This document shows, piece after piece, positions 9,644-62,729 of a stretch of 64,000 nucleotides of DNA (position 1 is its first letter; every line of letters starts with the position of its first letter). The stretch is from a virus. Taxonomy: Duplodnaviria; Heunggongvirae; Uroviricota; Caudoviricetes. The notes under the pieces are model-generated. The model did no database searches. It saw only the letters and a program-made list of their open reading frames with translations, and was not told where the DNA came from. The position numbers and the translations under genes are program-made. The stretch is from positions 20,600 to 84,599 of IMG/VR virus record IMGVR_UViG_3300049825_000338; one strand, given 5' to 3'.

Positions 9644-10906
9644 TCAGGAAGACAACTCCATGTCCGGAACGTCGGCCTCAGCAGCCAGGCCCTCACCCAC
9701 GCGGAACGTCAAACCCTTGTGCTTCAAGGCATAGGTACGACCCTCTGGCGTCTCAACACGGGCAACCACGCCCTCGATAGGATGCGACTCGTCTAGAGGG
9801 TCCGGACCATCAAAATACACCTCAGCAATCTTAACTGTATAATGAGGATCAGCAGCTTCGTGAATGTGCCGAGCAATCTCTCTGACGTGAGGAACGCCGA
9901 GCTGCGCAGCACGATGCTTGACCTGCGGCCATGAAAGCTCTACAGAAACAGGAGCACCGAAAGCGTCTTCGGTTGTCTGTGTGACTCGGTAGATGTACAC
10001 ACCAATCGAGCCATCAATCTGGCCGTACTTGTAGGTAACACCATCGCCCCACTTCTTAAAGTCCTTCGTATCCTTGAAGTTGTGTCGACCCATGATCGGG
10101 CTGTCCTGAGCCGTGTAACCGACAATCTCGTAGTAGACGATCTCGCCCTTGTGAAGCTTGCCATCGAACAACGAAGCTGCTCGCTTGCGGAATGATTCGT
10201 CCAGGTAGTAGCCAGGGCCGTCAAACTGGTCAAGCACCGTATTACGCGTACCGGTCAAGTACATCCATTCAAACGACTCCGCTGACTTCGTCGGTCGTCG
10301 AAAAAGCTTCTCGATGAGTGTGCGCTTCTCTGTGCTCTCAACCTTGTCGAGCACGTGGCCTGTTCGGCCGCTGGTGCCGTGCATCTTGTGCGTGAAGTAC
10401 ACCATCGAGCCGTCAGGAATCTGATCGAAGTAGTAACCTAGCTGTTCGGTGTCAAAATGCTTCGCAAAGAACGGATTTGACCGTCGAAGCTTGTGATCAT
10501 TCGGACCACCAGCTGCCTTAGTCTTCGGTACATGCTTGAGGCACACTTCGTGACCATTCAATTCCGTGAATATGTCACCGGACTTCAGTGCTGACAGATC
10601 GTAGCCTGTGTAAGCGAGCGATGACAATGGTGCAATGTAGCCGTCAGATGACTCGCCACGAAACTTCTGTGGGCGAACGCGCAACGAGTCGGGGAAGTAC
10701 CCGCCGTCCTTGGACCGTAGCCTGTTCTCGGTTGCATACTCATCGGAGACTGCTAACTCCGAAGAGAAAAAGACGACAAGCTCACCGTCTGTCGTGTCCA
10801 GCCCGACAACAACCTGAAAGCCGCCCACCTGAGCGAGCTTCAGTCGGTCTGCATTTGGGTGCGGACGAATCGACGCCTGTGTAATGAATGCTCCGTGCGT
10901 TGTCAT
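9644..10906 (-). CDS. RNA ligase with N-terminal tRNA-binding (OB-fold) domain
   Basis: HPNADRLKLAQV (tRNA-binding domain signature), KMHGTSGR resembling ligase motif I (KxDG variant); adjacent phosphoesterase genes. Confidence 0.55.
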   Translation of the reverse strand: MTTHGAFITQASIRPHPNADRLKLAQVGGFQVVVGLDTTDGELVVFFSSELAVSDEYATENRLRSKDGGYFPDSLRVRPQKFRGESSDGYIAPLSSLAYTGYDLSALKSGDIFTELNGHEVCLKHVPKTKAAGGPNDHKLRRSNPFFAKHFDTEQLGYYFDQIPDGSMVYFTHKMHGTSGRTGHVLDKVESTEKRTLIEKLFRRPTKSAESFEWMYLTGTRNTVLDQFDGPGYYLDESFRKRAASLFDGKLHKGEIVYYEIVGYTAQDSPIMGRHNFKDTKDFKKWGDGVTYKYGQIDGSIGVYIYRVTQTTEDAFGAPVSVELSWPQVKHRAAQLGVPHVREIARHIHEAADPHYTVKIAEVYFDGPDPLDESHPIEGVVARVETPEGRTYALKHKGLTFRVGEGLAAEADVPDMELSS

Positions 10907-11565
10907 GATGCTCTCTTTCGTGCAATAGAAATTTCTTTGATCAATTCTTGCAAGCTTAACGGCCCTTCGATCCAGCTGTCAACTCCAACGTGAAATGAAT
11001 TCATATCGTCATGGGCGACTTGGCCGTGAGTGTGCCCGTGTACCAAAACGGTTCCGTCTCTGAAGTCCTCGCGCTTTGGGTACCACTTCGCGATGTCGTA
11101 ACCTCGGTCAGCGTCGTCGTGATCTGGAGTGCCAAACCATGGAAAGTGACTGAAAATGGTGCCCTCCAATTCAGGAGCGATAGTGACACCGGCCATAATT
11201 GTAGGGTGGATGGTGAACGTACCTTCGTACAACTCACGAGCACCTTTAGCTCGTTCGGGATTCTTGTGTTGTGCTGCTGGGTGAACGTTGTCGTGGTTGC
11301 CTGGAATCAAGTGCTTGATTCCGTTCAAGTTCTCAGCCATCCATGGAATCGACACAGACCGAGTACCCATAGCGGCATCGCCCACGATCCAGATGTGGTC
11401 GTCCTTACCGACAACTCTATTCCAGGCTGTTTGCAGCACGGCGTTATGTGTCTCGACAGTGCCATCAAACATAGCTCCCTGACGAAATTTCTCAGCCAGA
11501 TTGGTGTGAAAGAAGTGCGTATCACTCCAGAAAAACGTGTTCATAGGGTTACACTCTACCCGCAA
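10903..11565 (-). CDS. calcineurin-like metallophosphoesterase
   Basis: DTHF, GDAAMG, GNHD, GHTHG motifs. Confidence 0.7.
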   Translation of the reverse strand: MRVECNPMNTFFWSDTHFFHTNLAEKFRQGAMFDGTVETHNAVLQTAWNRVVGKDDHIWIVGDAAMGTRSVSIPWMAENLNGIKHLIPGNHDNVHPAAQHKNPERAKGARELYEGTFTIHPTIMAGVTIAPELEGTIFSHFPWFGTPDHDDADRGYDIAKWYPKREDFRDGTVLVHGHTHGQVAHDDMNSFHVGVDSWIEGPLSLQELIKEISIARKRAS

Positions 11566-11577
11566 AACCTAGATATG

Positions 11578-12357
11578 TCAAGTGCTGTACAGAAACTGAT
11601 TCAACGTAACAATCGTGTCGAGAACCGTGTCAAGAACTCTGGCAGAACTGTGAAGCGTAACGCCCTGGCTTGACTCAGCCAAGCCGGTGCAGTGAAAGCC
11701 GTCTACATTGTAATCTTCGTTCATATGCCAGTGACCATGGACAAGTCGTTCAGGTCTGATTTCGTTTAGGCACTGGCGAATGAGGTTCTGCCCTGCCCTG
11801 CTCCCCTTACGGTGCTGCTCGGGGATTCGACTCTGAAAGTCGTCATGACCGTACTTATGAAGTACCAGGCTTACCGGTGCTTCGTGAGTCAGTAGAATGT
11901 GCGCTCGCTTGCCACGAACAAACTCAAGCGAGCTAGGCGAAACAACCTCTTCATCAAAGTAGGAGTGCCCAAGAGAGCGCATGTCACGATCGATGGAATA
12001 GGCACCACCAATGGCGATTATGTCCGTCTCATTCCAGCGCCATGCGCCGTGACGAGGCACAAACTGTGTGCCTTCGACGTCCACAAACGGACCTTCTTCC
12101 AGAAGATAGCCCGAAAGAGACTTCCAATCTTCGTGATTACCCGGCAACCAGAAAAGTGCTACACCGGTTTTGGACTGCTCTTGCCTGGCTACGGAGAGAA
12201 AACGCTGACCAGCTTCGTTACGTGGCCAATATCCGAAATCGCCCATCTGAAAGATGGCATCAATGCCGCTGTCTTGCGCAACCTTGAATGCCGACAGCAG
12301 AGCATAGGTGTCACAGTGAGTGTCACCTAGAAGGAGTACGAAGCGAGGGTCGGTCAT
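11578..12357 (-). CDS. calcineurin-like metallophosphoesterase
   Basis: LLGDTHCD, MGDFGYWP, GNHEDW, LLTHEAP motifs. Confidence 0.7.
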   Translation of the reverse strand: MTDPRFVLLLGDTHCDTYALLSAFKVAQDSGIDAIFQMGDFGYWPRNEAGQRFLSVARQEQSKTGVALFWLPGNHEDWKSLSGYLLEEGPFVDVEGTQFVPRHGAWRWNETDIIAIGGAYSIDRDMRSLGHSYFDEEVVSPSSLEFVRGKRAHILLTHEAPVSLVLHKYGHDDFQSRIPEQHRKGSRAGQNLIRQCLNEIRPERLVHGHWHMNEDYNVDGFHCTGLAESSQGVTLHSSARVLDTVLDTIVTLNQFLYST

Positions 12358-12371
12358 CAGTCTAGTCTACT

Positions 12372-13016
12372 TTAAACGCTTTGGTTTGTCAACTCACTGA
12401 TGCGAACGGATAGTAGCCAGTCGTTAATGGTGCTGTAGTCAGGAAGTTCGTTTAGGCGGGATGCATAACTAGTCACCTGCTCAAAGAGACTCCGAACCGT
12501 CGAGATATCGGCATTGCGACAAAAGTCAATCTGTGCGTCTGTCAGTGCCGGGGTGATTGTTCCCCAGTAAAGAAGTGACTGTAGCTGTAGTGACAGACGA
12601 GCAGCATGGCGCAACAGCTTGGGATCGTCCTTACCGACGCGTGCGTAGCGGATCAGTTGATTGTTGATGTACCCCTTGTATGCTCTCACAGCTTCATTAC
12701 TCAAAAAACAGTGACGAAGCTCAACTAATTCAACTCCGGTCTTTGTCAGCGTCTCGTGAGACGGCAGCCACAGTACTTCATTGACCGTTGGATTACCTTT
12801 CAAAGCTAGAGCGCAAAATCGGCCTAACTCGTGATACGTTGTGTCAAACGGCTCGTGACTTTGAATACTCACGTTCTTGTCATACTCAATACCAAGAACT
12901 TTTCGCGTCGGCGCAAGCTGAACTTCTATATAATCATAATCGGAGTCGGGTGTCTCTAATCCGTAGGCACGTGAACCCACCAAAGCCTTAAGAATCGTGA
13001 TCATGGTGAAGCGCAA
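12372..13016 (-). CDS. nucleotidyltransferase-fold (Pol beta-like) protein
   Basis: LVGSRAYGLETPDSDYDY matches G[SG]x(9-13)DxD NTase motif. Confidence 0.5.
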   Translation of the reverse strand: MRFTMITILKALVGSRAYGLETPDSDYDYIEVQLAPTRKVLGIEYDKNVSIQSHEPFDTTYHELGRFCALALKGNPTVNEVLWLPSHETLTKTGVELVELRHCFLSNEAVRAYKGYINNQLIRYARVGKDDPKLLRHAARLSLQLQSLLYWGTITPALTDAQIDFCRNADISTVRSLFEQVTSYASRLNELPDYSTINDWLLSVRISELTNQSV

Positions 13017-13173: not shown

Positions 13174-13455
13174 TCACTTTACAAGAACCTTCTGCTTGTA
13201 CGTCTTCAAACCGTAATGCACTTGAAGAGCGTCTTCGACGGTTTCGGCCGTTCCTCGTTCAGAGCACGTAGCCATAATCTGCATCGAGATGTTTGCCGGG
13301 TCAAGACCGCTACCTGTCAACGTGTCCTGACGCTTACCAGCAACGGCAGCGCGATGAGACCAAAGACGCTTTTTCGGATGTTCCGTGACCCCGATGTAGG
13401 CTGGTTGACCGTTAATGATTCCGGAATGTACTGCGTACACATAAAATTGCTTCAC
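13174..13455 (-). CDS. GIY-YIG nuclease domain protein (catalytic domain only)
   Basis: FYVYAV...YIGVTEHPKKRLWSHR. Confidence 0.6.
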   Translation of the reverse strand: MKQFYVYAVHSGIINGQPAYIGVTEHPKKRLWSHRAAVAGKRQDTLTGSGLDPANISMQIMATCSERGTAETVEDALQVHYGLKTYKQKVLVK

Positions 13456-13757
13456 TTGTTTGCCAACTCTCTGATTGAAGGGTTTGCCCCAGATATTCCT
13501 AGGTGCTTATGAACGGCTTTTCTAAGCCTCCTGGTATAAAGTGTATGTCTGTCAAAGGGATGAGGATTATCCAGATAGGTCATGTATCCACAACGAACTT
13601 TTAAGTCACCAAGATCAAATTGCCAGAACCTGTTATCGTTGTCGCCATAAAGTCGTTTAAAGTTTGTTGCGCGACCGGCCTTAACTCCGCTAACTACAAC
13701 GGAATACCACCAAAGTCCTCGTGCTTTCGATTTCTCAATTCGGATACCTTCAGCCAC
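13452..13757 (-). CDS. hypothetical protein (ATGA-coupled to GIY-YIG gene)
   Basis: ORF; start/stop overlap. Confidence 0.4.
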   Translation of the reverse strand: MAEGIRIEKSKARGLWWYSVVVSGVKAGRATNFKRLYGDNDNRFWQFDLGDLKVRCGYMTYLDNPHPFDRHTLYTRRLRKAVHKHLGISGANPSIRELANK

Positions 13758-15213
13758 GGAGACGTTCTCTGATCTTGTCTAGCGTGTTGTCTTCGGCATA
13801 GTCCATCGAAATCAAACTGTCTACGAACGCTGGTCGAAGAAGATCGCGTGTAGACGACTCCTGCTCTTCTGGAGATAGGCCATCATTCAGAACGAGTTTG
13901 CCGTTCTCACGAGTCACCGTCAAGAATCCAGTTGCAGACTTCTTCAGGCCGTCATCAGTCACTGGGTCTTTGGCAAGAAAGTGAATCTTTCCGTTGATCT
14001 CGGCTGCTGTAGCCTTCATGGCCCACCCGAACGTATCGCGAGTTACGTACTGGTATGTGTAGCTGCCAATACCGAGCACAACTTCTGGAGCGTAGCCAGC
14101 GGACTGAAGTCGAGCAAGAATTTCTTGCGCTCGATCAAACGTAATGGCGTCTCCATAAATCACGCCAACCTTAGGATTGAGCACTCTGTAACCTTGAGTG
14201 TTCGTTGTGCTTCCAAATACTTTGTCAAGAAGACGGACAACGCCTTTCGATTCATCAGAATCAGCAGGTGCGTCAGGATCACCGCAAATGATCTTTACCG
14301 GGTCGCCACTGTCAGGACGGATCACGAGCTTGCCGTCACGAGCCTCAATTTCTTCCTTAAGGTCAGGAAGAATGTTGTTGATCACGTTCCACAAGTCCCA
14401 AGTGTCAGAAACAACCGAGACAATCCCAGAAGGGTACAGGTGCAAAAGTCGATTGAATGTCTCTCGCTCGTCCATTTTTGATCCAGCGCACATCACTGAG
14501 TGCTCGGTAGCAGCCACTGAGCCACCGATGAGTCCTTGACCGTCGTAGTAGTGCTCAAGCAGCTTGATTGCTGGGATGGTGTCCGTGCCCGTAAAGCTGA
14601 GAAGGTGGCCAGCGCCTGAGATAGCGGCGCTTTCTGGACTGGACATGCCGCGGAAACTGAAGTCATGACCTTGCCACTGCACGAACTCTGGTGCTACACC
14701 GGTAGCGGCTGCGCTACGGTCAAACAACTTTCGGTATCTGTCCGCAGTCGTAGCTGACGTCGATGGCAGCCACAGGACGCTGGACAGCAGCGTCTCGATA
14801 TAGTTGGTCAGCCAGAAGAACTCTGGGTCAGTATTTTCGACCGTAAGAACGGGAACCCTCATCGGCACTCTCGTGCCCTCGTCCAAAGCCATGATGGCAA
14901 TCGGAAGACGTTGCAACTTATGCAGTGCTTCGATGTGGTCGACGCCGATATTGTTGGGTCCGAGGTAGCTATCCAAGAACTCGCGATACTCCGCAACCGC
15001 TACGTCACAGGGGGTATCGAACCATTCATTGAACTCGTCAACAAGATACTTCTGCATGAAATAGCGAAGACCAAAGAACACAATCTCGTCAACACCCTCA
15101 ATGCGTGATCCTCGCGGCGTCAGGTTAGAGTAGACAAACGTCGTTCCTTCTGGATACTGACGACGGTGGTCTACCTTGTAGCCGTCAGTTAGCAAGATTG
15201 CTGGTGTGTTCAC
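13750..15213 (-). CDS. nadV: nicotinamide phosphoribosyltransferase (NAMPT)
   Basis: LLTDGYKVDH, VENTDPEFFWLTNYIETLL, GHDFSFRG, VVSDTWDLWN match NAMPT family blocks. Confidence 0.85.
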   Translation of the reverse strand: MNTPAILLTDGYKVDHRRQYPEGTTFVYSNLTPRGSRIEGVDEIVFFGLRYFMQKYLVDEFNEWFDTPCDVAVAEYREFLDSYLGPNNIGVDHIEALHKLQRLPIAIMALDEGTRVPMRVPVLTVENTDPEFFWLTNYIETLLSSVLWLPSTSATTADRYRKLFDRSAAATGVAPEFVQWQGHDFSFRGMSSPESAAISGAGHLLSFTGTDTIPAIKLLEHYYDGQGLIGGSVAATEHSVMCAGSKMDERETFNRLLHLYPSGIVSVVSDTWDLWNVINNILPDLKEEIEARDGKLVIRPDSGDPVKIICGDPDAPADSDESKGVVRLLDKVFGSTTNTQGYRVLNPKVGVIYGDAITFDRAQEILARLQSAGYAPEVVLGIGSYTYQYVTRDTFGWAMKATAAEINGKIHFLAKDPVTDDGLKKSATGFLTVTRENGKLVLNDGLSPEEQESSTRDLLRPAFVDSLISMDYAEDNTLDKIRERLRG

Positions 15214-16129
15214 GGTGGAACCTTTCGATTAGATTAGCAATTGAATACGTGCGAGTTACGTTCACGTTTGGATGAGCATACGAGTCTGTCGTAAGAATAT
15301 GTGTGTACCGTTTCAGTAGTTCTGATGTGCCTTTCGAAAAGATACCATGAGATACCCACAGCGACAATGGCACTCTACCGCCAACTATGTCAGCAAGACC
15401 ATGAAATGTTGCACCACCATCACAGATATCGTCAACAACAAGCCCGTTAGTGACGCCTTCCGGAATAGCGAGAGACTCGTACCCAGTGATACTGCCGGTG
15501 TCGAAGTTTCGTTTCTTTATTCCGTAGCTCACTTTCTTAATCCCTAGGAATTCTGCAAACGCTTCGGCGCGACCTACTGCCCCATGATCTGGAGTAATGA
15601 CCCAATCAAACTTTGGCATCCATACTTCAGCCTTTGCCAGAACTTCGTGAGCGCTGTAGACAACAACGTTTTTGTTCCAGTTATGAAGCCAATTCAGTGA
15701 ATGAGGATCAAACACGCCGACATAATCGCAAGCGTCCATGAAGTAATCCATGATGATGGAAGCCGTATCGGGCGTTCCATTTTGTTGACGATCCTGACGT
15801 CCTCCGTAGATATACGGAATGAATGCAGAGACGTAGGCACCAGCACCAACCAAAGCATCTACCAGCAGCATCGACCGAAACATACATGATGTCGAACTAT
15901 GGTCAACAACCAACGTCATTTCAAGTCCAGCAAACTTCGGTGGATCAGTCAACTGCACCTGCTGTGCTCCATCAGGAAAAACAAACTCGGCGTACCACGA
16001 CTGATCTGTCTGATACAGGATCATAGCACTGAACGATTTAGGTAAAGTAGACCAGCGCACAGCAACACTCCAAGGATCAGCACTACCGCTCCCATGGCCA
16101 ACGCCCGCTGCTAGCGAGTCCGACAACAC
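15185..16129 (-). CDS. prs: ribose-phosphate pyrophosphokinase (PRPP synthetase); likely start at MILYQT (~16024)
   Basis: IPYIYGGRQDRQ (Prs hallmark) and VVDDICDGGATF PRPP-binding loop. Confidence 0.8.
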   Translation of the reverse strand: MLSDSLAAGVGHGSGSADPWSVAVRWSTLPKSFSAMILYQTDQSWYAEFVFPDGAQQVQLTDPPKFAGLEMTLVVDHSSTSCMFRSMLLVDALVGAGAYVSAFIPYIYGGRQDRQQNGTPDTASIIMDYFMDACDYVGVFDPHSLNWLHNWNKNVVVYSAHEVLAKAEVWMPKFDWVITPDHGAVGRAEAFAEFLGIKKVSYGIKKRNFDTGSITGYESLAIPEGVTNGLVVDDICDGGATFHGLADIVGGRVPLSLWVSHGIFSKGTSELLKRYTHILTTDSYAHPNVNVTRTYSIANLIERFHREHTSNLAN

Positions 16130-17612
16130 TAGGAATCAGATCAAGAATCTGATCCGAAAATCCGCCGACAACAAAGCGGTTATGTGAGCCATGCTGGGCA
16201 TGGGCAACTGCGTATCCGGCGACATTCCATGTGACTACAGGAACGTTAACGATGCTGGTATCTCTAACCGACGTCTGCTCATCTGTCAAGATGATAACCA
16301 GATCGTACCTGCCTCGTCGGAATGCTTCTGACGTGCAGTGCCACGTGTCAGTGCCGCCGTTAGGACGGAACCATCCAGAATTCACGACACCTAGAACAGA
16401 CTGTGTGTCGAGATGAGCGTTCTTCTGTTCACGAAGAAGGCGAGTATCGTAGCTCACGATATCGGCTGACTTAGCTCGTCTAGCAAGTGTAACTGCAAAT
16501 AGTCCTGCAACCTGCGATCTCGTAGGAGACGTTCCCCGGCTGTCGTTTCCGACGCGTGTGCCCATAGAGCCAGAGCAGTCAACCATAATAAGAACGTTCT
16601 TGTTGATTAACGGAAGGTTCTTCACCGACTCTTCTAACGCATCGTTCAACGGCTGCTTGAAGCGATCGCTCTTTGTGTTCATGTACGCAGACAAGAAGCG
16701 ATACGGAAGCTGCTTGGACTTAGCTACTTCTTCAGCGTTTGCGATTCGGGCTGCCGCCTTAGCAAGTTCTTTAACGGGAACGTGAGCGTCTTCTAGGTTG
16801 CGCAGGTTGCGCAGAAGCGCCATGTAGCCTAGCTCTGGAACTAGTGCAGACCATGCAGACGCATCCAGGCCTCCAGGCAGCCATGAACCAAGACGTTCCC
16901 ATGAGAAGCCAGCCGACACGGCCTCGTCTAGCCGTGCACGTCGCTCAGCTGCTGGAATGCTCTGAAGATTCAGAACTTGAGAAATTCGTCCTAGCTCTTC
17001 GGGAGTACTTACGGCATTACGTCGTCGATCAAGCGCAAACTTGAACAGCGCAGACTGCTTCTCTGTTGACGGTATAGGGTGCACAATCTCGATGACGTCA
17101 CCGAACCGCCAGCCCTTATTAGAGCCGTCGTAGCGAAGCAACGCGTTCTCTGTGTACAGGCGTTTCACAGCATCACCAATGCCGCGCTTTAGCGCCATTG
17201 GCATCTGGCGACCGTACTGGCTGAACCAGTAACCGAGCATTTCTCCCGGCTCGTCAGCGCGCTGAAGAACGGAGTTAACAACCGAACGAGCGTTCGGTCC
17301 CTTCATCCGAGCGTACTCTGCTGCAATGACAAGCGAGGCCGAACGAATGTTTGCCTCATTGCGGAGCCACTTCACGAACGGAGCAATCCATGACGGATCA
17401 CACCTACTCACCAATGTCGCAAGACGATCAAGCTGGTCAGCGCCGCTTTCGTAGAACTGATCCTTGAGGAGTCCGGATACGGCCGTCAGAAACAACTCTG
17501 TTTGAGCAGTGTTCTCGAATCCTAGTCCGCCTTCAAACGTCTGTACTCGGTTGGTTGTTGATGCCAGTAGTGCTGGCCGCGCCTTGGCTGGTGTGTTACT
17601 GAATCGTGCCAT
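16083..17612 (-). CDS. rsr: Ro60-like TROVE domain protein with C-terminal vWA domain
   Basis: alpha-helical TROVE-like N-terminal ~340 aa (QFYESG...IAAEYARM), then vWA MIDAS motif VLIMVDCSGSMG and downstream T/D motifs. Confidence 0.6.
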   Translation of the reverse strand: MARFSNTPAKARPALLASTTNRVQTFEGGLGFENTAQTELFLTAVSGLLKDQFYESGADQLDRLATLVSRCDPSWIAPFVKWLRNEANIRSASLVIAAEYARMKGPNARSVVNSVLQRADEPGEMLGYWFSQYGRQMPMALKRGIGDAVKRLYTENALLRYDGSNKGWRFGDVIEIVHPIPSTEKQSALFKFALDRRRNAVSTPEELGRISQVLNLQSIPAAERRARLDEAVSAGFSWERLGSWLPGGLDASAWSALVPELGYMALLRNLRNLEDAHVPVKELAKAAARIANAEEVAKSKQLPYRFLSAYMNTKSDRFKQPLNDALEESVKNLPLINKNVLIMVDCSGSMGTRVGNDSRGTSPTRSQVAGLFAVTLARRAKSADIVSYDTRLLREQKNAHLDTQSVLGVVNSGWFRPNGGTDTWHCTSEAFRRGRYDLVIILTDEQTSVRDTSIVNVPVVTWNVAGYAVAHAQHGSHNRFVVGGFSDQILDLIPSVVGLASSGRWPWER

Positions 17613-18457
17613 TAGTAATCGTCGTCCTCATCTTCCCGATCTTCGTACTCGCTGTCATCGTAACCCCAACCGTCATCGTCGTCTTCTTCAGACCACACAG
17701 CTGGCCAGATGTAGACCTCTGCGACTTCTTGCTTGATCTCACCTACAACCTCGTAGCGCCACGTGCGGCCCTTGCTGTAGTTGTAATCGTCCGGAATGGA
17801 TACGACATCGGCGGGATTGATCTTCACAACCATCACGCGTGCCCCGCCAAAGCTCTTCAGGTAGTTCTTAGAGCAGAAGTGCAGACCAGTTGAGCAGTGG
17901 TTGCGTCGATTGTCATCCACCTCTCCCCGATTCATCTGAACCGTCTGGCCGATGCTGTTGTCGATCGTTCCGGTGTAGCAGTCGGTGTAGTCATCATGGA
18001 CCTTCTTGAAGGCCAAGAAGTGCCCGTCAGGAGTGATCGGAAGACCAGCAACCTCCAGGAAGTCGTACAACTCGTCACGAGCCGCTACGAACGGGTTGCG
18101 GTACAGATTGGTTATGAACTTGACCCACGCCGCAACGTCCAGACCTTCGTTGATGATTTGGAGTACTCGGTCGGTGAGCGTTGTGTGGACTGGCTCGCCG
18201 TCGTAGTAAACACCGCTGGTGGTTACCGTCAGTTCACCCTCAGGCAAGAGGATCATCGTGTCAGGCAGGCTGCTAAAGGCATCAGCGATGCTCTTGGCTG
18301 GACTGGCCAGCCCGACTAGGTATTCGATGTCCGGGTTCGGGTTACGCAGCGCTTCTAGAGCGTTCTCGAACGCCATCGTACCGGTTTCGATCGAGTGGCT
18401 GTTAAAGTCGTTGTCAAAGAACGTGAGAGTGTTCGATGTGAGGAGATAGTTGATCAT
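17612..18457 (-). CDS. hypothetical protein with poly-acidic C-terminal tail
   Basis: ORF; TAATG stop/start overlap with rsr-like gene; tail EEDDDDGWGYDDSEYEDREDEDDDY. Confidence 0.5.
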   Translation of the reverse strand: MINYLLTSNTLTFFDNDFNSHSIETGTMAFENALEALRNPNPDIEYLVGLASPAKSIADAFSSLPDTMILLPEGELTVTTSGVYYDGEPVHTTLTDRVLQIINEGLDVAAWVKFITNLYRNPFVAARDELYDFLEVAGLPITPDGHFLAFKKVHDDYTDCYTGTIDNSIGQTVQMNRGEVDDNRRNHCSTGLHFCSKNYLKSFGGARVMVVKINPADVVSIPDDYNYSKGRTWRYEVVGEIKQEVAEVYIWPAVWSEEDDDDGWGYDDSEYEDREDEDDDY

Positions 18458-18489
18458 TTGAAAGTTCCTTCCCTTTGTTAATAGATAGC

Positions 18490-20472
18490 TTACTGGCTGA
18501 CTTGGTTTGTGACAACTTGATTGAGAGAATTTTTCCAGGCGATGTACGCAGCCACCTCGTCATCGTGACCGTTGCTGAACAGAAGCGGATAAGTGTTATG
18601 GATGGTGGACAGTACTTCCTTGGACATCGTGTCCACGTCCCAGTAATTCACCATAAATCCTGCGAATCGGTCATCATCTTCACCAAGATCGCTGAAGATT
18701 GGGTGATCCATCACTGTTTCCAGTAGCGCCGGATACCGGTCAAGCTGTGCAACAACCTGCGACCTTGCCCTATGACGAAGAACCACGTCCTTGTATTTCT
18801 CTGACGTAGCGCTGAGCGCCTCACTCCAGTGACGACTTTCTGGTAGACCCAGCTTCCTCACCTCGGCTGGTGTGTAGTGCTTGACCTCTAGAGTTGGGTG
18901 GTCGATACTAAGAACGTTCCACTCCGAACCTGACGGGCTGTCCTGGTGACGTTTGCTGCGACTCTGGTTGGCCCAAAAAAGGTCAGGGTTACTCAAATCA
19001 AACGTCGGTTTAGGACGCTTAGGTGTCGTGGATGCCTGACGAACCTCCTTTGGCTTCTTGGGTAGGTCGTCAAAGTTGATGATATTCTCATCCGGAATAC
19101 GCGCCTCGGTCTTAATCTTGTCCATATCACTATGCGAGCCAACCAGCAAAAAATCATCTCTATGGCGAGAAGATGGATAGTTGAACGTGAGAGTGGTGCG
19201 TACTCCCTTACTTCCTGTTGGAATGACAATGAACTTGTGCCGCAGACGTCGTTCGATATAGACTCTGTGATCACAAGGTACGGAGTAGGTCGGGAACACC
19301 GGACCCTTGGTAAATCGACTAGCGTAGGTAGGATCATGGTCAAGCGCCACATCAATACTATCGATCAAAGGGGCACCACGGTAATTGAACGTGTTACGGG
19401 CCAGACCAAAGTTCTGTACTGTGTCGTACCAGTAGAACGATGCGTCTACGACTGAGCTACAGGCGTCCAATTTGTCTTGAATGTGGCTGATCACCGAAGC
19501 ACGAGCGTCAGTGATGGCATCCCGAACCGCTACGATGCTCTGCTCATCGTATGAGAAGTCTTCACGAGAGGCCGTCACGTCGATCGACCCAATCGGAACA
19601 TCAATGACCACAGCAATTCTGTGCACTCGCAAAGAGTTTTGAAGAACCGAACTCTTTGAAATTGGGTAGATCACGCAACCTTGACGAATGTACGTGCCCT
19701 CATCCAACTCAGACGTTGCCAGCAATATCCGAACGTTGTCGACGTGCAGAATCTCTTCCGGCTCTGCAAAGTTCATGCCTTCGACAGCTGGCACAGGAAA
19801 GAACCCGTTAAGAAAGCGTCGTGCTGCTCGTGCAAACTCGTGATAGTCGCCGTGCTTGATTGAAAGCTTCACCTCGACACCTTGTGGCTCCGAGCAGTCC
19901 TCTTCACCCGCAAGCGTCAGCGCCGGAACGCCGCTGTTTTCGATGAACGCCAAGTAACTGCGTACTCGCGTTCCGTCGTAGCAACGAATCGCAAACTGAT
20001 CGGTGTAGGAGAAAGGCGACTTAGAGCCGAGACCGAGCATACCTACCTGGTCGTTGGTGCTTTCCTTTGACGAGCCAAACAACGTTGTGTACAGCGTGGT
20101 CACGGTCTCGTGATCCATGCCGGTGCCGAAGTCGCGAACACCGAACACAGGATTTAGTGCTGTAGGAACTGTAACCTCGAACGGCACGTCAGCCTTGCCT
20201 GCGGCTACGTGCGAGTCGAATGCGTTAGAGCACAATTCTCGCACGATTGCGCCAGGCTTGTCAGAGTAAAGCTTGTCCACGAGTGTGCGGAAGGCCTTAC
20301 CGTTCGCTTCAATCGTGAATGACTTCACGGTTCCGGTCATGTTCGACTCAAGAACGGTGGTGTCTGCGTTGCGGGGGATCATGATGTGACCTCTTCTGTC
20401 AGGTTGAACTGAGCGTAGTAGGGTGATGTGTCGTGAACTTTTCCTTCGGGACCGAAGACGCCATAGCACCAT
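18490..20472 (-). CDS. GHKL-family ATPase (HSP90/MORC-like); probable start at 20382 (ATGA overlap with upstream gene)
   Basis: N-box RELCSNAFDS, G1 box VRDFGTGM, G2 box GMLGLGSKS. Confidence 0.6.
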   Translation of the reverse strand: MVLWRLRSRRKSSRHITLLRSVQPDRRGHIMIPRNADTTVLESNMTGTVKSFTIEANGKAFRTLVDKLYSDKPGAIVRELCSNAFDSHVAAGKADVPFEVTVPTALNPVFGVRDFGTGMDHETVTTLYTTLFGSSKESTNDQVGMLGLGSKSPFSYTDQFAIRCYDGTRVRSYLAFIENSGVPALTLAGEEDCSEPQGVEVKLSIKHGDYHEFARAARRFLNGFFPVPAVEGMNFAEPEEILHVDNVRILLATSELDEGTYIRQGCVIYPISKSSVLQNSLRVHRIAVVIDVPIGSIDVTASREDFSYDEQSIVAVRDAITDARASVISHIQDKLDACSSVVDASFYWYDTVQNFGLARNTFNYRGAPLIDSIDVALDHDPTYASRFTKGPVFPTYSVPCDHRVYIERRLRHKFIVIPTGSKGVRTTLTFNYPSSRHRDDFLLVGSHSDMDKIKTEARIPDENIINFDDLPKKPKEVRQASTTPKRPKPTFDLSNPDLFWANQSRSKRHQDSPSGSEWNVLSIDHPTLEVKHYTPAEVRKLGLPESRHWSEALSATSEKYKDVVLRHRARSQVVAQLDRYPALLETVMDHPIFSDLGEDDDRFAGFMVNYWDVDTMSKEVLSTIHNTYPLLFSNGHDDEVAAYIAWKNSLNQVVTNQVSQ

Positions 20473-20609
20473 CCCGTCCGGCGAGCGAGCGCCTGCGCTT
20501 CGATGATTGCCTCATCCTTGGAGTCGATCGTGCGGGCATTGAATGTGCGATAAAAGCCGTCACCGCCGTTGTCATCGGTGTAGGTGACAATCTTGATTGT
20601 GTAACTCAT
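20379..20609 (-). CDS. hypothetical small protein, first gene of the GHKL/rsr/NAD-salvage operon
   Basis: consensus leaderless promoter 20616-20644. Confidence 0.5.
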   Translation of the reverse strand: MSYTIKIVTYTDDNGGDGFYRTFNARTIDSKDEAIIEAQALARRTGWCYGVFGPEGKVHDTSPYYAQFNLTEEVTS

Positions 20610-20615
20610 AAGCTA

Positions 20616-20644
20616 AGCTTACTCTTCCTCGTTCAAGATGTCAA
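20616..20644 (-). promoter_or_regulatory. sigma-70-type leaderless promoter
   Basis: minus: TTGACA (20639-20644), 17 nt, TAAGCT (20616-20621), 6 nt, ATG 20609. Confidence 0.55.
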
Positions 20645-21295: not shown

Positions 21296-21730
21296 TCAGT
21301 CATGAAAAATCGCTCCCGTTGTCCGAGACAGGTAATCACCCGTCAAAACAAACTTCTCGTACATATCCATGATTGCCCGCTCCGGGACAACTCGCTCACG
21401 TGCGGTGTTGCGAGCCAGGCACAGAGCAAGGGGCGTATCGAAGACGTGATAGGACACTCTTGCTTCCCGTGCAAGCGCCAAGTTACGCAGGTCGGAGCGA
21501 ACCTTAGGTGACAGGTTCGTGTCCGCACTGACGACCGTAGACCCGTTAGAGATGGCGTCGGCAATTCGTTGGTTACGAATCGCAACAACCTTTTTCTCAT
21601 CACGAGGCCAAACGGCGTCAATCTCTTCGCGTATATCGTCCCGTGTGACGGTCAAATATCCAGTCGTCTCCGCCCACGTTGACTTGCCGCTCGCTGGCAG
21701 TCCGATCGTAATTATCAGATGTCCCGGCAT
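21296..21730 (-). CDS. polynucleotide 5'-kinase (T4 Pnk kinase-domain-like)
   Basis: IITIGLPASGKSTW P-loop, RDD, VVSADTNLSP, HVFDTP, blockwise like T4 PNK N-terminal kinase domain. Confidence 0.7.
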   Translation of the reverse strand: MPGHLIITIGLPASGKSTWAETTGYLTVTRDDIREEIDAVWPRDEKKVVAIRNQRIADAISNGSTVVSADTNLSPKVRSDLRNLALAREARVSYHVFDTPLALCLARNTARERVVPERAIMDMYEKFVLTGDYLSRTTGAIFHD

Positions 21731-22140: not shown

Positions 22141-22623
22141 TCATGGCTTGCCTTTCTTTGGTCTACCAAGGTGAATACCTTTGGCTTTTGCTGCGGCCAT
22201 ACCGGCCTTCGTGCGTTCTACGATGATCTCTCGCTCAAACTCTGCAACAGCCGAGAGAATTCCCGCTACTAGCTTACCGACCGGTGTGCCCAAATCAACC
22301 TGAAGATCAAGAACGCTGAGAGACCAGCCGTTGCCCTGGAACTCTTCCAGAAGAGTGGCAAAGTCCTTGACTGAGCGCGACAACCGATCAAGCTTGGCAA
22401 CCACAACCCCGTCTGCCTCTCCACGGCGAAGCATAGACAGCGCCCTCTGTAGCTCAGGGCGAGCCTCAGCACTTTTGCCCGAGGCGGCTTCGGTAATGTG
22501 ACCAACGATGTCGTGCTCATTCAACTGACTCCAGAGTCCAATCTTATGCCACTGTGCGTCGAGACCGTGGCCATCCTCGGCTTGGTCGAACGTTGAGACT
22601 CGCGTGTAAGCAATATAGCGCAC
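22141..22623 (-). CDS. serine recombinase (resolvase/invertase) catalytic domain, lacks HTH domain
   Basis: YIAYTRVSTFDQ with catalytic Ser, ends at GRPKKGKP where HTH normally begins. Confidence 0.6.
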   Translation of the reverse strand: MRYIAYTRVSTFDQAEDGHGLDAQWHKIGLWSQLNEHDIVGHITEAASGKSAEARPELQRALSMLRRGEADGVVVAKLDRLSRSVKDFATLLEEFQGNGWSLSVLDLQVDLGTPVGKLVAGILSAVAEFEREIIVERTKAGMAAAKAKGIHLGRPKKGKP

Positions 22624-26600: not shown

Positions 26601-27107
26601 CTAGATGGAACAGATCATCAACTGTGGCCCGCCAAGAATCGAATCTTCGGCAAGCTGAAGCGTCTGAATAACCTCACTCCATTCCAGGCCACCAATCCCT
26701 GCGCCAATGCGTGGGATGTAGAGGAAGTCGATGCCGAACCCAAACCGCTTGTTGATCGAGTCTAGGCTGGACAAGGCGTTGATCGTTGCATCTCTAATCG
26801 CCTGCTGCTCTGCAAAGGGACCAGGCTCCACCTGAGTGATCATATTGAACACCAACGGAGACTCTGGAGTAACGCCTGCCGGATTGCCGTCATGCCATTG
26901 CACAACTTGACCGAGATTGACGGCTCCATTGCGGCACTGGTCGGCGTAGTATTCGTAGCATGTCGGGTATAGCTGACGAACCTGGCGAGCAAACCCCGCC
27001 CCCATCATTCCGCGAGCGTTGCAGCCATGCGCAAACGCACGCGGCCTGAAGTCAAACAAATTCCCAAATACCTCAATCAAGAGGATTCTCCGTTCCCATG
27101 TAGTCAA
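26601..27107 (-). CDS. macro domain (ADP-ribose binding/processing) protein
   Basis: HGCNARGMMGAGFARQV resembles the macro-domain N..GGGV loop. Confidence 0.6.
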   Translation of the reverse strand: MTTWERRILLIEVFGNLFDFRPRAFAHGCNARGMMGAGFARQVRQLYPTCYEYYADQCRNGAVNLGQVVQWHDGNPAGVTPESPLVFNMITQVEPGPFAEQQAIRDATINALSSLDSINKRFGFGIDFLYIPRIGAGIGGLEWSEVIQTLQLAEDSILGGPQLMICSI

Positions 27108-29859: not shown

Positions 29860-29942
29860 ACTGTAGTCCTACTGACCAACAAAGTCAAGCAGAACATGAC
29901 GTGACGTGCGTCACTTGACAAGTGACATAAAGAGAGTAAGAT
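29860..29942. promoter_or_regulatory. divergent promoter pair flanking a central GTGACGTGCGTCAC palindrome
   Basis: plus: TTGACA (29915-29920), 16 nt, TAAGAT (29937-29942), 6 nt, ATG 29949. Minus: TTGACT (29883-29888), 17 nt, TACAGT (29860-29865). Palindrome 29901-29914 between them. Confidence 0.5.
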
Positions 29943-43331: not shown

Positions 43332-43360
43332 AGTATACCACCACCTACTGAAGTTGTCAA
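43332..43360 (-). promoter_or_regulatory. sigma-70-type leaderless promoter
   Basis: as above; AGAAATTGTACAAA element upstream. Confidence 0.55.
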
Positions 43361-62588: not shown

Positions 62589-62729
62589 CCTACGTAATGA
62601 ACAAGACGTATAACGGCAACGTGCAAGATATTTTGCTGCTGATTCAAGACGTTGATGCACGAAAGGCGTCAACGTTTGAGATCGTATGCAAAGATGGCAC
62701 AACCGTTTCAGTGACGTGGGATCGAACGA

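What the first reader, a model, noticed from the sequence alone, without database searches (positions are those of the whole stretch)
16083..20472. Operon coupling a Ro60/TROVE-vWA protein to an HSP90/MORC-like GHKL ATPase, an acidic-tail protein and NAD+ salvage genes
Gene order from one leaderless promoter at 20616-20644 is: 76-aa gene, GHKL ATPase, acidic-tail protein, TROVE-vWA, PRPP synthetase, NAMPT, 101-aa gene, GIY-YIG. Ro60 orthologs (Rsr) bind Y RNAs and act with RNA-repair or decay enzymes. Their co-transcription with a GHKL ATPase and PRPP/NMN synthesis is not an arrangement I know. It may be a phage module that senses or repairs damaged RNA while rebuilding NAD+ pools depleted by abortive-infection systems. 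The GHKL protein has an intact N-box, G1 and G2 boxes, so it is predicted to be catalytically active.
Basis: partly seen in the sequence, partly recalled or inferred. Interest (0 to 1): 0.7.

Follow-up and report, generated by a model that had tools for sequence, protein, structure and literature searches.

The report
Phage operon of known counter-defence genes
The genes are real and probably co-transcribed, but they are three already-known phage accessory modules (rIIA/rIIB, a Ro60-like RNA-binding ring, and the NARP1 NAD+-rebuilding enzyme pair) that happen to sit side by side in one uncultivated phage, so this is not a new coupled machine.

Summary
On the minus strand a promoter at 20616-20644 directly abuts the ATG of a 76-aa gene. 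It belongs to a 13-member TTGACA-N17-TANNNT family (1.3 expected by chance). Eight tightly packed genes follow, down to 13174.

The labels need correcting:
- The "GHKL ATPase" is rIIA (33% identical to T4 rIIA, E 5e-39).
- The "acidic-tail protein" is rIIB (40% identical to T4 rIIB, E 4e-44).
- "PRPP synthetase + NAMPT" is NARP1, that is Adps + Namat. The best solved match is SPβL1 Namat (511 bits, against 227 for true NAMPTs), and the ADPR-PP clamp residues are kept.
- The TROVE-vWA protein is a genuine Ro60 orthologue (predicted-fold TM 0.62-0.73 to every Ro60 structure).

The coupling is not conserved. rIIA/rIIB lie within 10 kb of the TROVE gene in 0 of 88 other loci, and NARP1 does in 2. 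A related 114-kb phage carries all three modules, but its rII pair lies about 8 kb beyond NARP1.

One real oddity remains. 69 of 90 loci have a YrlA-like RNA just upstream of the Ro gene, and this phage shows none in 71.8 kb.

Best reading: a lineage-specific counter-defence and RNA-repair island. Interest is low to moderate.

The parts
20616..20644 (-). Leaderless sigma-70/sigma-A-type promoter, TTGACA-N17-TAAGCT, with the ATG of p76 starting 6 nt after the -10 element
   Evidence: Member of a 13-site family against 1.29 expected by chance. In 11 of the 13 sites an ATG lies 6-8 nt after the -10 element. Sequence read.
20379..20609 (-). p76, first gene of the unit. Small protein of unknown function, translationally coupled to rIIA by an ATGA overlap
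   Evidence: No Pfam, PHROG or NCBIfam hit. Only 9 relatives among 1.84 billion representatives, six of them proteins of about 70 aa. No similarity to T4 rIIA.1.
18490..20382 (-). rIIA homologue, 630 aa, with an N-terminal GHKL-type ATP-binding domain
   Evidence: phrog_612 RIIA 2.9e-106. BLASTP to T4 rIIA: 33% over 276 aa, E 5e-39, with N-box, G1 and G2 aligned. 2926 phage records hold homologues. Weak hits to HATPase_c, HSP90 and sacsin models.
17612..18457 (-). rIIB homologue, 281 aa, with a lineage-specific acidic C-terminal tail (residues about 247-281)
   Evidence: phrog_609 7.6e-62. PF26926 Phage_T4_rIIB in the precomputed annotation. BLASTP to T4 rIIB: 40% identity, E 4e-44; the alignment ends before the tail.
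16083..17612 (-). Ro60/Rsr orthologue: TROVE HEAT-repeat ring plus a vWA domain with a MIDAS motif (D345, S347, S349, T421, D444). Its start overlaps the rIIB stop (TAATG)
15185..16060 (-). Adps-like protein: a Prs-family enzyme read as the ADP-ribose pyrophosphokinase of NARP1
   Evidence: phrog_619 1.9e-48. Scores far below every NCBIfam Prs cut-off (76.6 bits against 113). Closer to phage homologues (112 bits, Gordonia phage) than to any solved cellular Prs (at most 40.5 bits). The RQDR motif, the catalytic Lys in 'IKKR' and the VVDDICDGGAT loop align to E. coli Prs. The gene overlaps Namat.
13750..15213 (-). Namat-like protein: nicotinamide ADP-ribose transferase of NARP1, a NAMPT-family enzyme
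   Evidence: Best PDB hits are 9W5X/9W5W, the SPβL1 Namat (2.9e-152, 510.7 bits), against 227 bits for true NAMPTs. Residues that are R40, F392, Y396 and R306 in the published structure are R, Y, Y and R here (PMC12774641).
13452..13757 (-). p101, an ORFan ORF overlapping the Namat stop
   Evidence: Matches only itself among 5.8 billion proteins. No family hit.
13174..13455 (-). Small stand-alone GIY-YIG nuclease domain, 93 aa. Last tightly coupled gene of the unit
   Evidence: PF01541, 22.9 bits against a cut-off of 22.6.
12372..13004 (-). RlaP-family nucleotidyltransferase ('RNA repair pathway' Pol-beta family). It lies after a 169-nt gap, with a possible promoter of its own (GTGACA-N18-TATATT)
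   Evidence: PF10127 1.4e-21. phrog_388. Promoter-like site. Sequence read.
9644..12357 (-). Flanking RNA-repair genes: metallophosphoesterases 11578-12357 and 10903-11544, each behind its own leaderless promoter, and an RNA ligase 9644-10906
   Evidence: phrog_1649, phrog_547 and phrog_968 RNA ligase 2.6e-52; Metallophos, PHA02142 OB and RNA_ligase. Promoters at 12392 and 11581.
21296..21730 (-). PNK-like P-loop kinase (AAA_33), upstream of the promoter and so in the preceding transcription unit
   Evidence: PF13671 1.2e-21; phrog_505 polynucleotide kinase 3.8e-25.

Best explanation
This is a transcription unit of about 7.4 kb in an uncultivated phage of about 106 kb that probably infects Actinobacteria. 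A host-type leaderless promoter at 20616-20644 drives eight close-packed genes. They string together three independently mobile, individually known phage accessory modules.

1. rIIA-rIIB. These are homologues of the T4 rII pair, which protects infection from membrane-acting abortive-infection systems such as lambda RexAB. The biochemical mechanism is still unknown.
2. A Ro60/Rsr orthologue. This is a HEAT-repeat ring with a vWA/MIDAS domain. It binds misfolded or damaged RNA and, in other systems, is tethered by Y RNA to exoribonucleases such as PNPase.
3. NARP1. Adps pyrophosphorylates ADP-ribose, and Namat joins the product to nicotinamide. This rebuilds NAD+ after host NADase defences have cleaved it.

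An ORFan and a small GIY-YIG nuclease follow. RNA-repair genes flank the unit: a PNK-like kinase upstream, and an RlaP nucleotidyltransferase, two phosphoesterases and an RNA ligase downstream.

The modules most likely act in parallel, as a counter-defence and damage-control island, and not as one physically coupled machine.

Shown here: the identity of each part, the promoter family, and the lack of conserved linkage. Inferred: co-transcription, the enzymatic specificities, and the counter-defence role in this particular phage.
For: Identities:
- rIIA and rIIB.
- Ro60.
- NARP1: together with bioRxiv 10.1101/2024.02.11.579819 (Adps next to Namat in 97% of the Adps clade; NARP1 in 4.3% of phages) and PMC12774641 (clamp residues).

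Transcription unit.

Independence of the modules:
- Among 80 IMG/VR TROVE loci plus 8 others, with up to 10 kb each side, 0 have rIIA/rIIB and 2 have Adps+Namat.
- Among 34 Namat loci, 29 have Adps, 1 has rII and 0 have TROVE.
- The related phage SRR21686407_13118 carries TROVE, Adps-Macro-Namat and rIIA-rIIB, but its rII pair starts about 8 kb past Namat.

The island reading: the same kinds of genes cluster in other combinations elsewhere.
- PNK, RNA ligase, Adps, Namat, NTase and Ro in Gordonia phage Neville.
- Adps, Namat and PNK, with an RNA ligase further on, in Mycobacterium phage Wigglewiggle.
- Adps, Namat, two small genes, rIIA, rIIB, an endoRNase and PNK in Escherichia phage mistaenkt.
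- An anti-defence gene (pCARD) has been reported beside rIIAB in Acinetobacter phage 133 (PMC10312443).

Actinophage affinity: the DNA polymerase's best hits are phages of Microbacterium, Actinomycetia and Gordonia, at about 32% identity.
Against: - No transcript data exist, so read-through from upstream promoters or internal starts cannot be excluded.
- Tight translational coupling of rIIB to the Ro gene (a 1-nt overlap) is what one would also see for interacting partners.
- Three lineages place Ro near NARP1 and RNA-repair genes, so some functional link between those is not excluded.
- The Ro gene lacks the cis-encoded Y RNA that most relatives have, so its mode of action here may differ from the textbook one.
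- The activities of Adps and Namat are inferred from homology and conserved residues only.
- The loci sampled are the 80 best IMG/VR hits, not an unbiased census.
Confidence: 0.7

Rival explanations
1. One reading: an integrated module in which the Ro60-like protein, the GHKL ATPase and the acidic-tail protein together sense or repair damaged RNA, while the NAD+ genes refill the pool, so that the gene linkage reflects physical or functional coupling.
For: The genes are tightly packed behind one promoter, and the rIIB stop overlaps the Ro start. RNA-repair genes flank the unit.
Against: The GHKL and acidic-tail proteins are rIIA/rIIB, which occur in about 2900 phage records while the TROVE query matched only 94. 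rII lies near TROVE in 0 of 88 other loci. The related phage with all three modules keeps them apart. Most Ro genes instead sit beside YrlA-like RNAs or tRNA arrays.
Confidence: 0.07
2. A narrower functional link. Ro60, NARP1 and the RNA-repair enzymes (kinase, phosphoesterases, ligase, RlaP) form a recurrent actinophage 'RNA damage plus NAD+ depletion' repair cluster, and rIIA/rIIB is an incidental insertion.
For: The same gene set lies within about 10 kb in Gordonia phage Neville. TROVE, Adps, Macro, Namat and a phrog_388 NTase lie together in L008. NARP1 with PNK and an RNA ligase in Wigglewiggle. RlaP-like NTase near TROVE in 7 of 89 other loci.
Against: Only 2 of 88 TROVE loci and 0 of 34 Namat loci show Ro-NARP1 proximity. 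That is close to what a 4.3% genome frequency of NARP1 could give by chance. Gene order differs in each case. No mechanism links the chemistries.
Confidence: 0.18
3. The two NAD+ genes are a classical salvage pair, true PRPP synthetase plus true NAMPT, making NMN. NAD+ synthesis would then be completed by a host or phage NMN adenylyltransferase.
For: Both proteins belong to the Prs and NAMPT superfamilies. Published Namat retains some PRPP-dependent NMN synthesis in vitro (PMC12774641).
Against: The NAMPT-like protein scores 511 bits to Namat against 227 bits to NAMPTs and keeps the adenine-clamp aromatics, where NAMPT has G and K (PMC12774641). The Prs-like protein falls below all Prs family cut-offs. 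No Nmnat or NUDIX family appears in the precomputed Pfam lists of the two loci read. Adjacency of Adps to Namat is the NARP1 signature (10.1101/2024.02.11.579819).
Confidence: 0.05

Closest known systems
T4 rIIA/rIIB (the classical rII locus; protects against RexAB-type abortive infection)
   Same: An adjacent rIIA-then-rIIB gene pair. The rIIA N-terminal GHKL-like domain is 33% identical to T4's, with the same N-box, G1 and G2. The rIIB C-terminal domain is 40% identical.
   Different: Both proteins are shorter (630 and 281 aa, against 725 and 312). The rIIA C-terminal half does not align. rIIB carries an extra acidic tail of about 35 aa. The pair sits in a phage with actinophage affinities, behind a leaderless promoter.
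NARP1 (Adps + Namat) of phages Bas63 and SPβL1
   Same: A two-gene Prs-like/NAMPT-like operon with overlapping genes. Namat scores 511 bits to the solved SPβL1 enzyme and conserves its clamp and catalytic residues.
   Different: Adps is divergent (at most about 38% identity to any phage homologue). A Poa1p-like Macro protein, a candidate Adpp, is encoded about 11 kb away and not inside the operon as in NARP1-AP.
Phage Ro60 homologues: Thermus phage phiLo φRo60, the actinophage 'Ro-like RNA binding protein', and CcrColossus
   Same: Full-length TROVE plus vWA architecture and fold. 40% identical to the protein of Arthrobacter phage Atuin. 9KOP is the best solved match.
   Different: Those genes have Y-RNA-like genes immediately upstream or sit in tRNA arrays (PMC12135203; PMC4201824). 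Here the gene abuts rIIB, and no Y-RNA-like or tRNA gene was found in 71.8 kb.
Felix O1-like (Ounavirinae) early region, for example Escherichia phage mistaenkt
   Same: NARP1, rIIA, rIIB and a polynucleotide kinase lie within about 8 kb on one strand.
   Different: The order is Adps-Namat-x-x-rIIA-rIIB. There is no Ro60 gene, and the phages are unrelated and infect Proteobacteria.

Membership tests
rIIA | Sequence homology to T4 rIIA | tested here: met
   BLASTP E 5e-39, 33% over 276 aa. phrog_612 2.9e-106.
rIIA | N-terminal GHKL/Bergerat-type ATP-binding motifs (N-box, G1, G2) | tested here: met
   The motifs align with those of T4 rIIA. The generic models hit only weakly: HATPase_c 18.2 bits against a cut-off of 26.4, and HSP90 NF010683 at 2.5e-7. 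ATPase activity could not be tested.
rIIA | Immediately followed by rIIB on the same strand | tested here: met
   A 32-nt gap containing a Shine-Dalgarno sequence.
rIIB | Homology to the T4 rIIB C-terminal domain (PF26926) | tested here: met
   BLASTP E 4e-44, 40% identity. PF26926 in the precomputed annotation. phrog_609 7.6e-62.
rIIA/rIIB | Protects phage growth from a RexAB-type exclusion system | not testable with these tools
   Needs phage genetics in the unknown host.
Ro60/Rsr (TROVE) | TROVE HEAT-repeat ring domain | tested here: met
   PF05731 48.7 bits against a cut-off of 23. Profile against 2NVO covers positions 20-452 at 1.3e-16. Full-length fold match with TM 0.62-0.73 to 13 Ro60 chains.
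Ro60/Rsr (TROVE) | C-terminal vWA domain with a MIDAS motif | tested here: met
   DxSxS (D345, S347, S349), T421 and D444 are invariant in the 26-sequence alignment. vWA_Ro60 scores 21.7 bits, below its cut-off of 27.7. The fold hits include integrin I domains.
Ro60/Rsr (TROVE) | Partner Y RNA (YrlA-like) encoded within about 4 kb on the same strand | tested here: not met
   No Rfam hit at the gathering threshold or at E<=5. The covariance model R1 scores 22-49 bits upstream of the TROVE gene in six other loci (CcrColossus, BRock, Neville and three metagenomic contigs). Its best score in the window is 6.2 bits, and it finds nothing in the next 7.8 kb. nhmmer finds nothing. There are no tRNAs. 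About 34 kb of the genome could not be read.
Ro60/Rsr (TROVE) | Binds structured or misfolded RNA | not testable with these tools
   Needs RIP-seq or EMSA.
NARP1 | Namat: a NAMPT-family enzyme with the ADPR-PP selectivity clamp (aromatics in the SCH helix, Arg in the SCL loop) and the catalytic Arg | tested here: met
   In the alignment to 9W5X, R40 aligns to R37, F392 to Y, Y396 to Y, and R306 is conserved (PMC12774641). 511 bits against 227 bits for NAMPTs.
NARP1 | Adps: a divergent Prs-family protein encoded next to Namat | tested here: met
   The genes overlap. The protein falls below all Prs cut-offs. The catalytic Lys and the ribose-phosphate loop are kept. Placement in the Adps clade by phylogeny was not done.
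NARP1 | Makes NAD+ from ADPR, ATP and nicotinamide | not testable with these tools
   Needs an enzyme assay.
NARP2 (Nampt + Nmnat) | A phage-encoded NMN adenylyltransferase accompanies the Nampt | tested here: not met
   No such family appears in the precomputed Pfam lists covering window positions of about 7.2-27.6 kb and 50-71.8 kb. The rest of the genome was not scanned.
GIY-YIG homing endonuclease | A GIY-YIG catalytic domain joined to a DNA-binding domain | tested here: inconclusive
   The catalytic domain barely passes (22.9 bits against 22.6). The protein is only 93 aa, with no room for a DNA-binding domain.

The most novel reading that the evidence does not exclude
The Ro60 orthologue works here without a phage-encoded Y RNA. 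It would be made in fixed ratio with rIIB through the overlapping stop and start codons, as part of a counter-defence programme. For example, it might capture the host's own Y RNA/PNPase machinery, or sequester damaged or signalling RNAs produced by RNA-targeting abortive-infection systems. The repeated appearance of Ro, NARP1 and RNA-repair genes together in actinophages would then mark a real functional guild.
Probability: 0.1. Interest if true: 0.6.

Novelty: new member of a known kind. Interest (0 to 1): 0.25.

Why it matters
It corrects an attractive but mistaken reading. What looked like an unprecedented Ro60-GHKL-NAD+ machine is a concatenation of rIIA/rIIB, a Ro60 orthologue and NARP1. 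The case still has modest value.

- It adds a divergent actinophage-type example of rII and NARP1.
- It shows that counter-defence and RNA-repair genes keep re-assorting into the same neighbourhoods in unrelated phages (Neville, Wigglewiggle, Felix O1-like). That is a usable guilt-by-association handle for finding new anti-defence genes such as p76.
- It gives a natural example of a phage Ro60 gene without its usual cis-encoded Y RNA.
- It provides a clean, statistically strong family of leaderless promoters for an uncultivated phage.

Tried and rejected
- Megablast of the 7.5-kb region against 50,697 phage records found nothing, so the phage has no close cultured relative.
- Rfam at the gathering threshold and at E<=5 over the window gave only three chance-level hits: sR30, sR28 and Xist.
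- The 10-mer TGATCTCGGG, conserved in the Y-like RNAs, and the T-loop motif occur no more often than chance in the window.
- I suspected that the 641-aa and 294-aa genes upstream of TROVE in L008 were rIIA/rIIB. PHROGs show that the first is a primase and the second has no match. The real rII pair of that phage lies further along the contig.
- p76 has no similarity to T4 rIIA.1.
- p101 was considered as a NARP1-embedded accessory like RyDEP or Adpp. It has no RyR or Macro hit and no homologue at all.
- A metagenome scan with rIIA for close relatives of this phage returned only two distant loci, so conservation within the lineage could not be tested beyond a near-identical strain (L003).
- A look-up of the 791-aa protein, meant to extend the sequence leftwards, failed.
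- The first HMMER job for p76 was lost and had to be rerun.
- rIIA and rIIB have no solved-structure relatives detectable by sequence.
- The intergenic gaps of the window show no structured RNA, apart from a probable terminator at 62589-62729.

Full report
**What is there.** Nearly all ORFs between positions 1 and about 52,000 of the window lie on the minus strand. The only correction concerns the GHKL gene. It starts at 20382, where its ATG overlaps the stop of the 76-aa gene as ATGA. The PHROG alignment starts at residue 31 of the longer ORF, and an independent gene call on a near-identical contig gives 630 aa.

**Source.** The window comes from a phage contig of about 106 kb, seen in a Logan assembly (SRR35533331_34691, 105,914 bp) and in a JGI contig of 106,011 bp. 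It has no close cultured relative. Its DNA polymerase is only about 32% identical to those of Microbacterium, Actinomycetia and Gordonia phages.

**Promoter and operon.**
- The site at 20616-20644 (TTGACA-N17-TAAGCT) is one of 13 matches to TTGACA-N16-18-TANNNT in the window. Chance expectation is 1.29, and none of 100 dinucleotide-preserving shuffles reached 13.
- Eleven of the 13 are on the minus strand. In 11 an ATG that opens an ORF of at least 45 aa lies 6-8 nt after the -10 hexamer. This is the signature of leaderless transcription, which by general knowledge is common in Actinobacteria.
- The next members downstream on this strand are at 12392 and 11581, in front of the two phosphoesterase genes. 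Relaxing the -35 by one mismatch adds only one site, inside the Adps gene.
- The internal junctions are overlaps or short gaps with Shine-Dalgarno sequences.
- No convincing intrinsic terminator lies inside the unit.

Co-transcription of p76 through GIY-YIG, and perhaps RlaP, is therefore well supported by sequence. It has not been demonstrated.

**Identity of the 'GHKL ATPase' and the 'acidic-tail protein'.** They are rIIA and rIIB.
- PHROG hits are 2.9e-106 (RIIA) and 7.6e-62 (RIIB).
- Direct BLASTP to T4 gives 33% identity over the N-terminal 276 residues of rIIA (E 5e-39). rIIB gives 40% identity (E 4e-44).
- Homologues of each occur in about 2900 of 50,697 phage records, with the same taxonomic spread.
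- The rIIB homologues listed by the protein search all carry PF26926.
- The acidic tail lies beyond the end of the T4 alignment and is lineage-specific.
- rIIB is known as an anti-RexAB protein that can itself trigger gasdermin defence, and an anti-defence gene has been found beside rIIAB in Acinetobacter phage 133 (PMC10312443).
- Neither protein has a solved relative.

**Identity of the TROVE-vWA protein.**
- Pfam TROVE passes its cut-off.
- The protein aligns nearly end to end with φRo60 of Thermus phage phiLo (9KOP/9L5Y, 1.7e-21; PMC12135203).
- A profile of 26 clade members hits 9KOP (4e-60), human RO60 (4e-18), Xenopus Ro60 1YVP (8.5e-17) and D. radiodurans Rsr 2NVO (1.3e-16).
- An AlphaFold2 model (pLDDT 87.2, pTM 0.83) has all 13 top Foldseek hits on Ro60 structures, with TM 0.62-0.73 over the full length, 1YVR included.
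- The MIDAS residues are invariant.
- 94 phage records hold relatives, and those in actinophages are annotated 'Ro-like RNA binding protein'. The closest is Arthrobacter phage Atuin at 40%.

**Identity of 'PRPP synthetase + NAMPT'.** This is NARP1.
- The NAMPT-like protein's best solved matches are 9W5X/9W5W (2.9e-152, 511 bits), against 227 bits for genuine NAMPTs. Those entries are Namat of phage SPβL1 (PMC12774641).
- In the alignment the clamp residues R40, F392 and Y396 and the catalytic R306 correspond to R, Y, Y and R here. The paper's clamp mutants, F392G and Y396K, replaced the two aromatics with glycine and lysine.
- The Prs-like protein overlaps Namat and scores below every NCBIfam Prs cut-off. 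It is nearer to phage homologues than to any solved cellular Prs. It keeps the catalytic Lys and the ribose-phosphate loop.
- Osterman et al. showed that such pairs make NAD+ from ADPR and nicotinamide through ADPR-PP, occur in 4.3% of phages and defeat NADase defences (10.1101/2024.02.11.579819).

**Is the linkage meaningful?** I fetched 80 IMG/VR loci encoding TROVE relatives, with up to 10 kb on each side, plus eight others, and searched them with all the window proteins.
- None has rIIA or rIIB.
- Two have Adps+Namat: a metagenomic phage (L008) and Gordonia phage Neville.
- Conversely, of 34 Namat loci, 29 have Adps, one has rII and none has TROVE.

L008's phage (114 kb) is the only relative I found with all three modules. 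Its TROVE is at about 16 kb and its Adps-Macro-Namat at about 19-21 kb. Its rIIA-rIIB is at about 30-33 kb, some 8 kb past Namat. The rIIB-Ro juxtaposition is therefore private to this lineage.

The same classes of genes do re-assort as neighbours elsewhere:
- PNK, RNA ligase, Adps, Namat, NTase and Ro in Neville.
- Adps, Namat and PNK, with an RNA ligase further on, in Mycobacterium phage Wigglewiggle.
- Adps, Namat, two small genes, rIIA, rIIB, an endoRNase and PNK in the Felix O1-like phage mistaenkt.

In the window itself the unit is flanked by a PNK-like kinase, an RlaP nucleotidyltransferase, two metallophosphoesterases and an RNA ligase. The simplest account is an accessory counter-defence and RNA-repair island whose members act in parallel.

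**The Y RNA question.** In relatives the Ro gene sits in tRNA arrays (Atuin and BRock) or has a tRNA-like element 100-190 nt upstream on the same strand.
- Aligning these regions revealed a conserved, often tandem, ncRNA.
- An HMM of it hits 75 of 90 loci. In 69 the hit is upstream, on the same strand and within 1.5 kb, with a median gap of 41 nt.
- A covariance model built from 16 copies finds the element upstream of the TROVE gene in distant phages that were not used to build it: CcrColossus 49 bits, L006 45, BRock 37 and Neville 32. This matches the published YrlA family, reported for 22 phages including CcrColossus (PMC4201824; PMC12135203).
- In the window the best score is 6.2 bits (E 0.7), with filters off. 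There is nothing in the next 7.8 kb. No tRNA is present, and there is almost no non-coding space.
- About 34 kb of the genome could not be read with the tools.

The absence of a cis-encoded Y RNA is the one feature that sets this Ro gene apart.

**Verdict.** Every part is a new, divergent member of a known family. The combination is new, but there is no evidence that it is a functional unit.

Noticed in passing
window minus strand, -35 hexamer starting at 43360, 43150, 40149, 36416, 29606, 23854, 23088, 20644, 12392, 11581, 10982; plus strand at 29915, 49733: A family of 13 promoters, TTGACA-N16-18-TA[AG]G[AC]T, against 1.3 expected by chance. In 11 of them an ATG lies 6-8 nt after the -10 element. 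The phage therefore appears to transcribe many units as leaderless mRNAs from host-type promoters.
   Followed up: partly
L014:9755-9997, L006:7776-7917, L010:11421-11547, L009:8688-8827, L002:7739-7869 and about 65 other loci: A conserved, often tandem, YrlA-like/tRNA-like ncRNA lies immediately upstream of the TROVE gene in 69 of 90 loci. ARAGORN miscalls many copies as short tRNA-Ser, tRNA-Asn or tRNA-Ile. Rfam's gathering scan of six related loci reported only tRNA and tmRNA.
   Followed up: partly
window 26601-27080 (-): A Macro-domain protein that is 31% identical to the Macro gene embedded in L008's Adps-Macro-Namat. It also matches yeast Poa1p ADPR-1''-phosphate phosphatase (6LFQ, 2e-5). 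It may be an unlinked Adpp, which would extend NARP1 to NARP1-AP (bioRxiv 10.64898/2026.01.28.702374).
   Followed up: partly
window 9644-13004 (-) and 21296-21730 (-): A split RNA healing-and-sealing set: a PNK-like kinase, an RlaP nucleotidyltransferase, two metallophosphoesterases and an RNA ligase with a PHA02142 OB domain. It resembles a phage tRNA-repair pathway aimed at anticodon nucleases.
   Followed up: partly
L095 (Escherichia phage mistaenkt) 9779-18038: In this Felix O1-like phage NARP1, rIIA, rIIB, an endoribonuclease and a polynucleotide kinase are contiguous. I found no paper that comments on this neighbourhood.
   Followed up: no
window 17612-17720 (-): rIIB ends in an acidic tail of about 35 residues (SEEDDDDGWGYDDSEYEDREDEDDDY) that T4 rIIB lacks. 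The alignments to the closest phage homologues also end before it.
   Followed up: no
window 13452-13757 (-): p101, wedged between Namat and GIY-YIG, has no homologue other than itself among 5.8 billion proteins. It is either a very young gene or not a gene at all.
   Followed up: yes
L133 504-4009: In a metagenomic phage whose rIIB is 52% identical to this one, five tandem ADP-ribosyltransferase (ADPrib_exo_Tox) paralogues lie about 1 kb upstream of rIIA-rIIB.
   Followed up: no
window 62589-62729 (+): A strongly structured 141-nt gap (MFE z about -4) between convergent genes, probably a bidirectional terminator.
   Followed up: no
window 22141-22623 (-), and about 51.0-51.4 kb (L091:853-1209): A small serine recombinase (resolvase N-terminal domain, 160 aa) and an RF-1-domain protein (118 aa, peptidyl-tRNA-hydrolase-like) are encoded in the same early gene block.
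   Followed up: no
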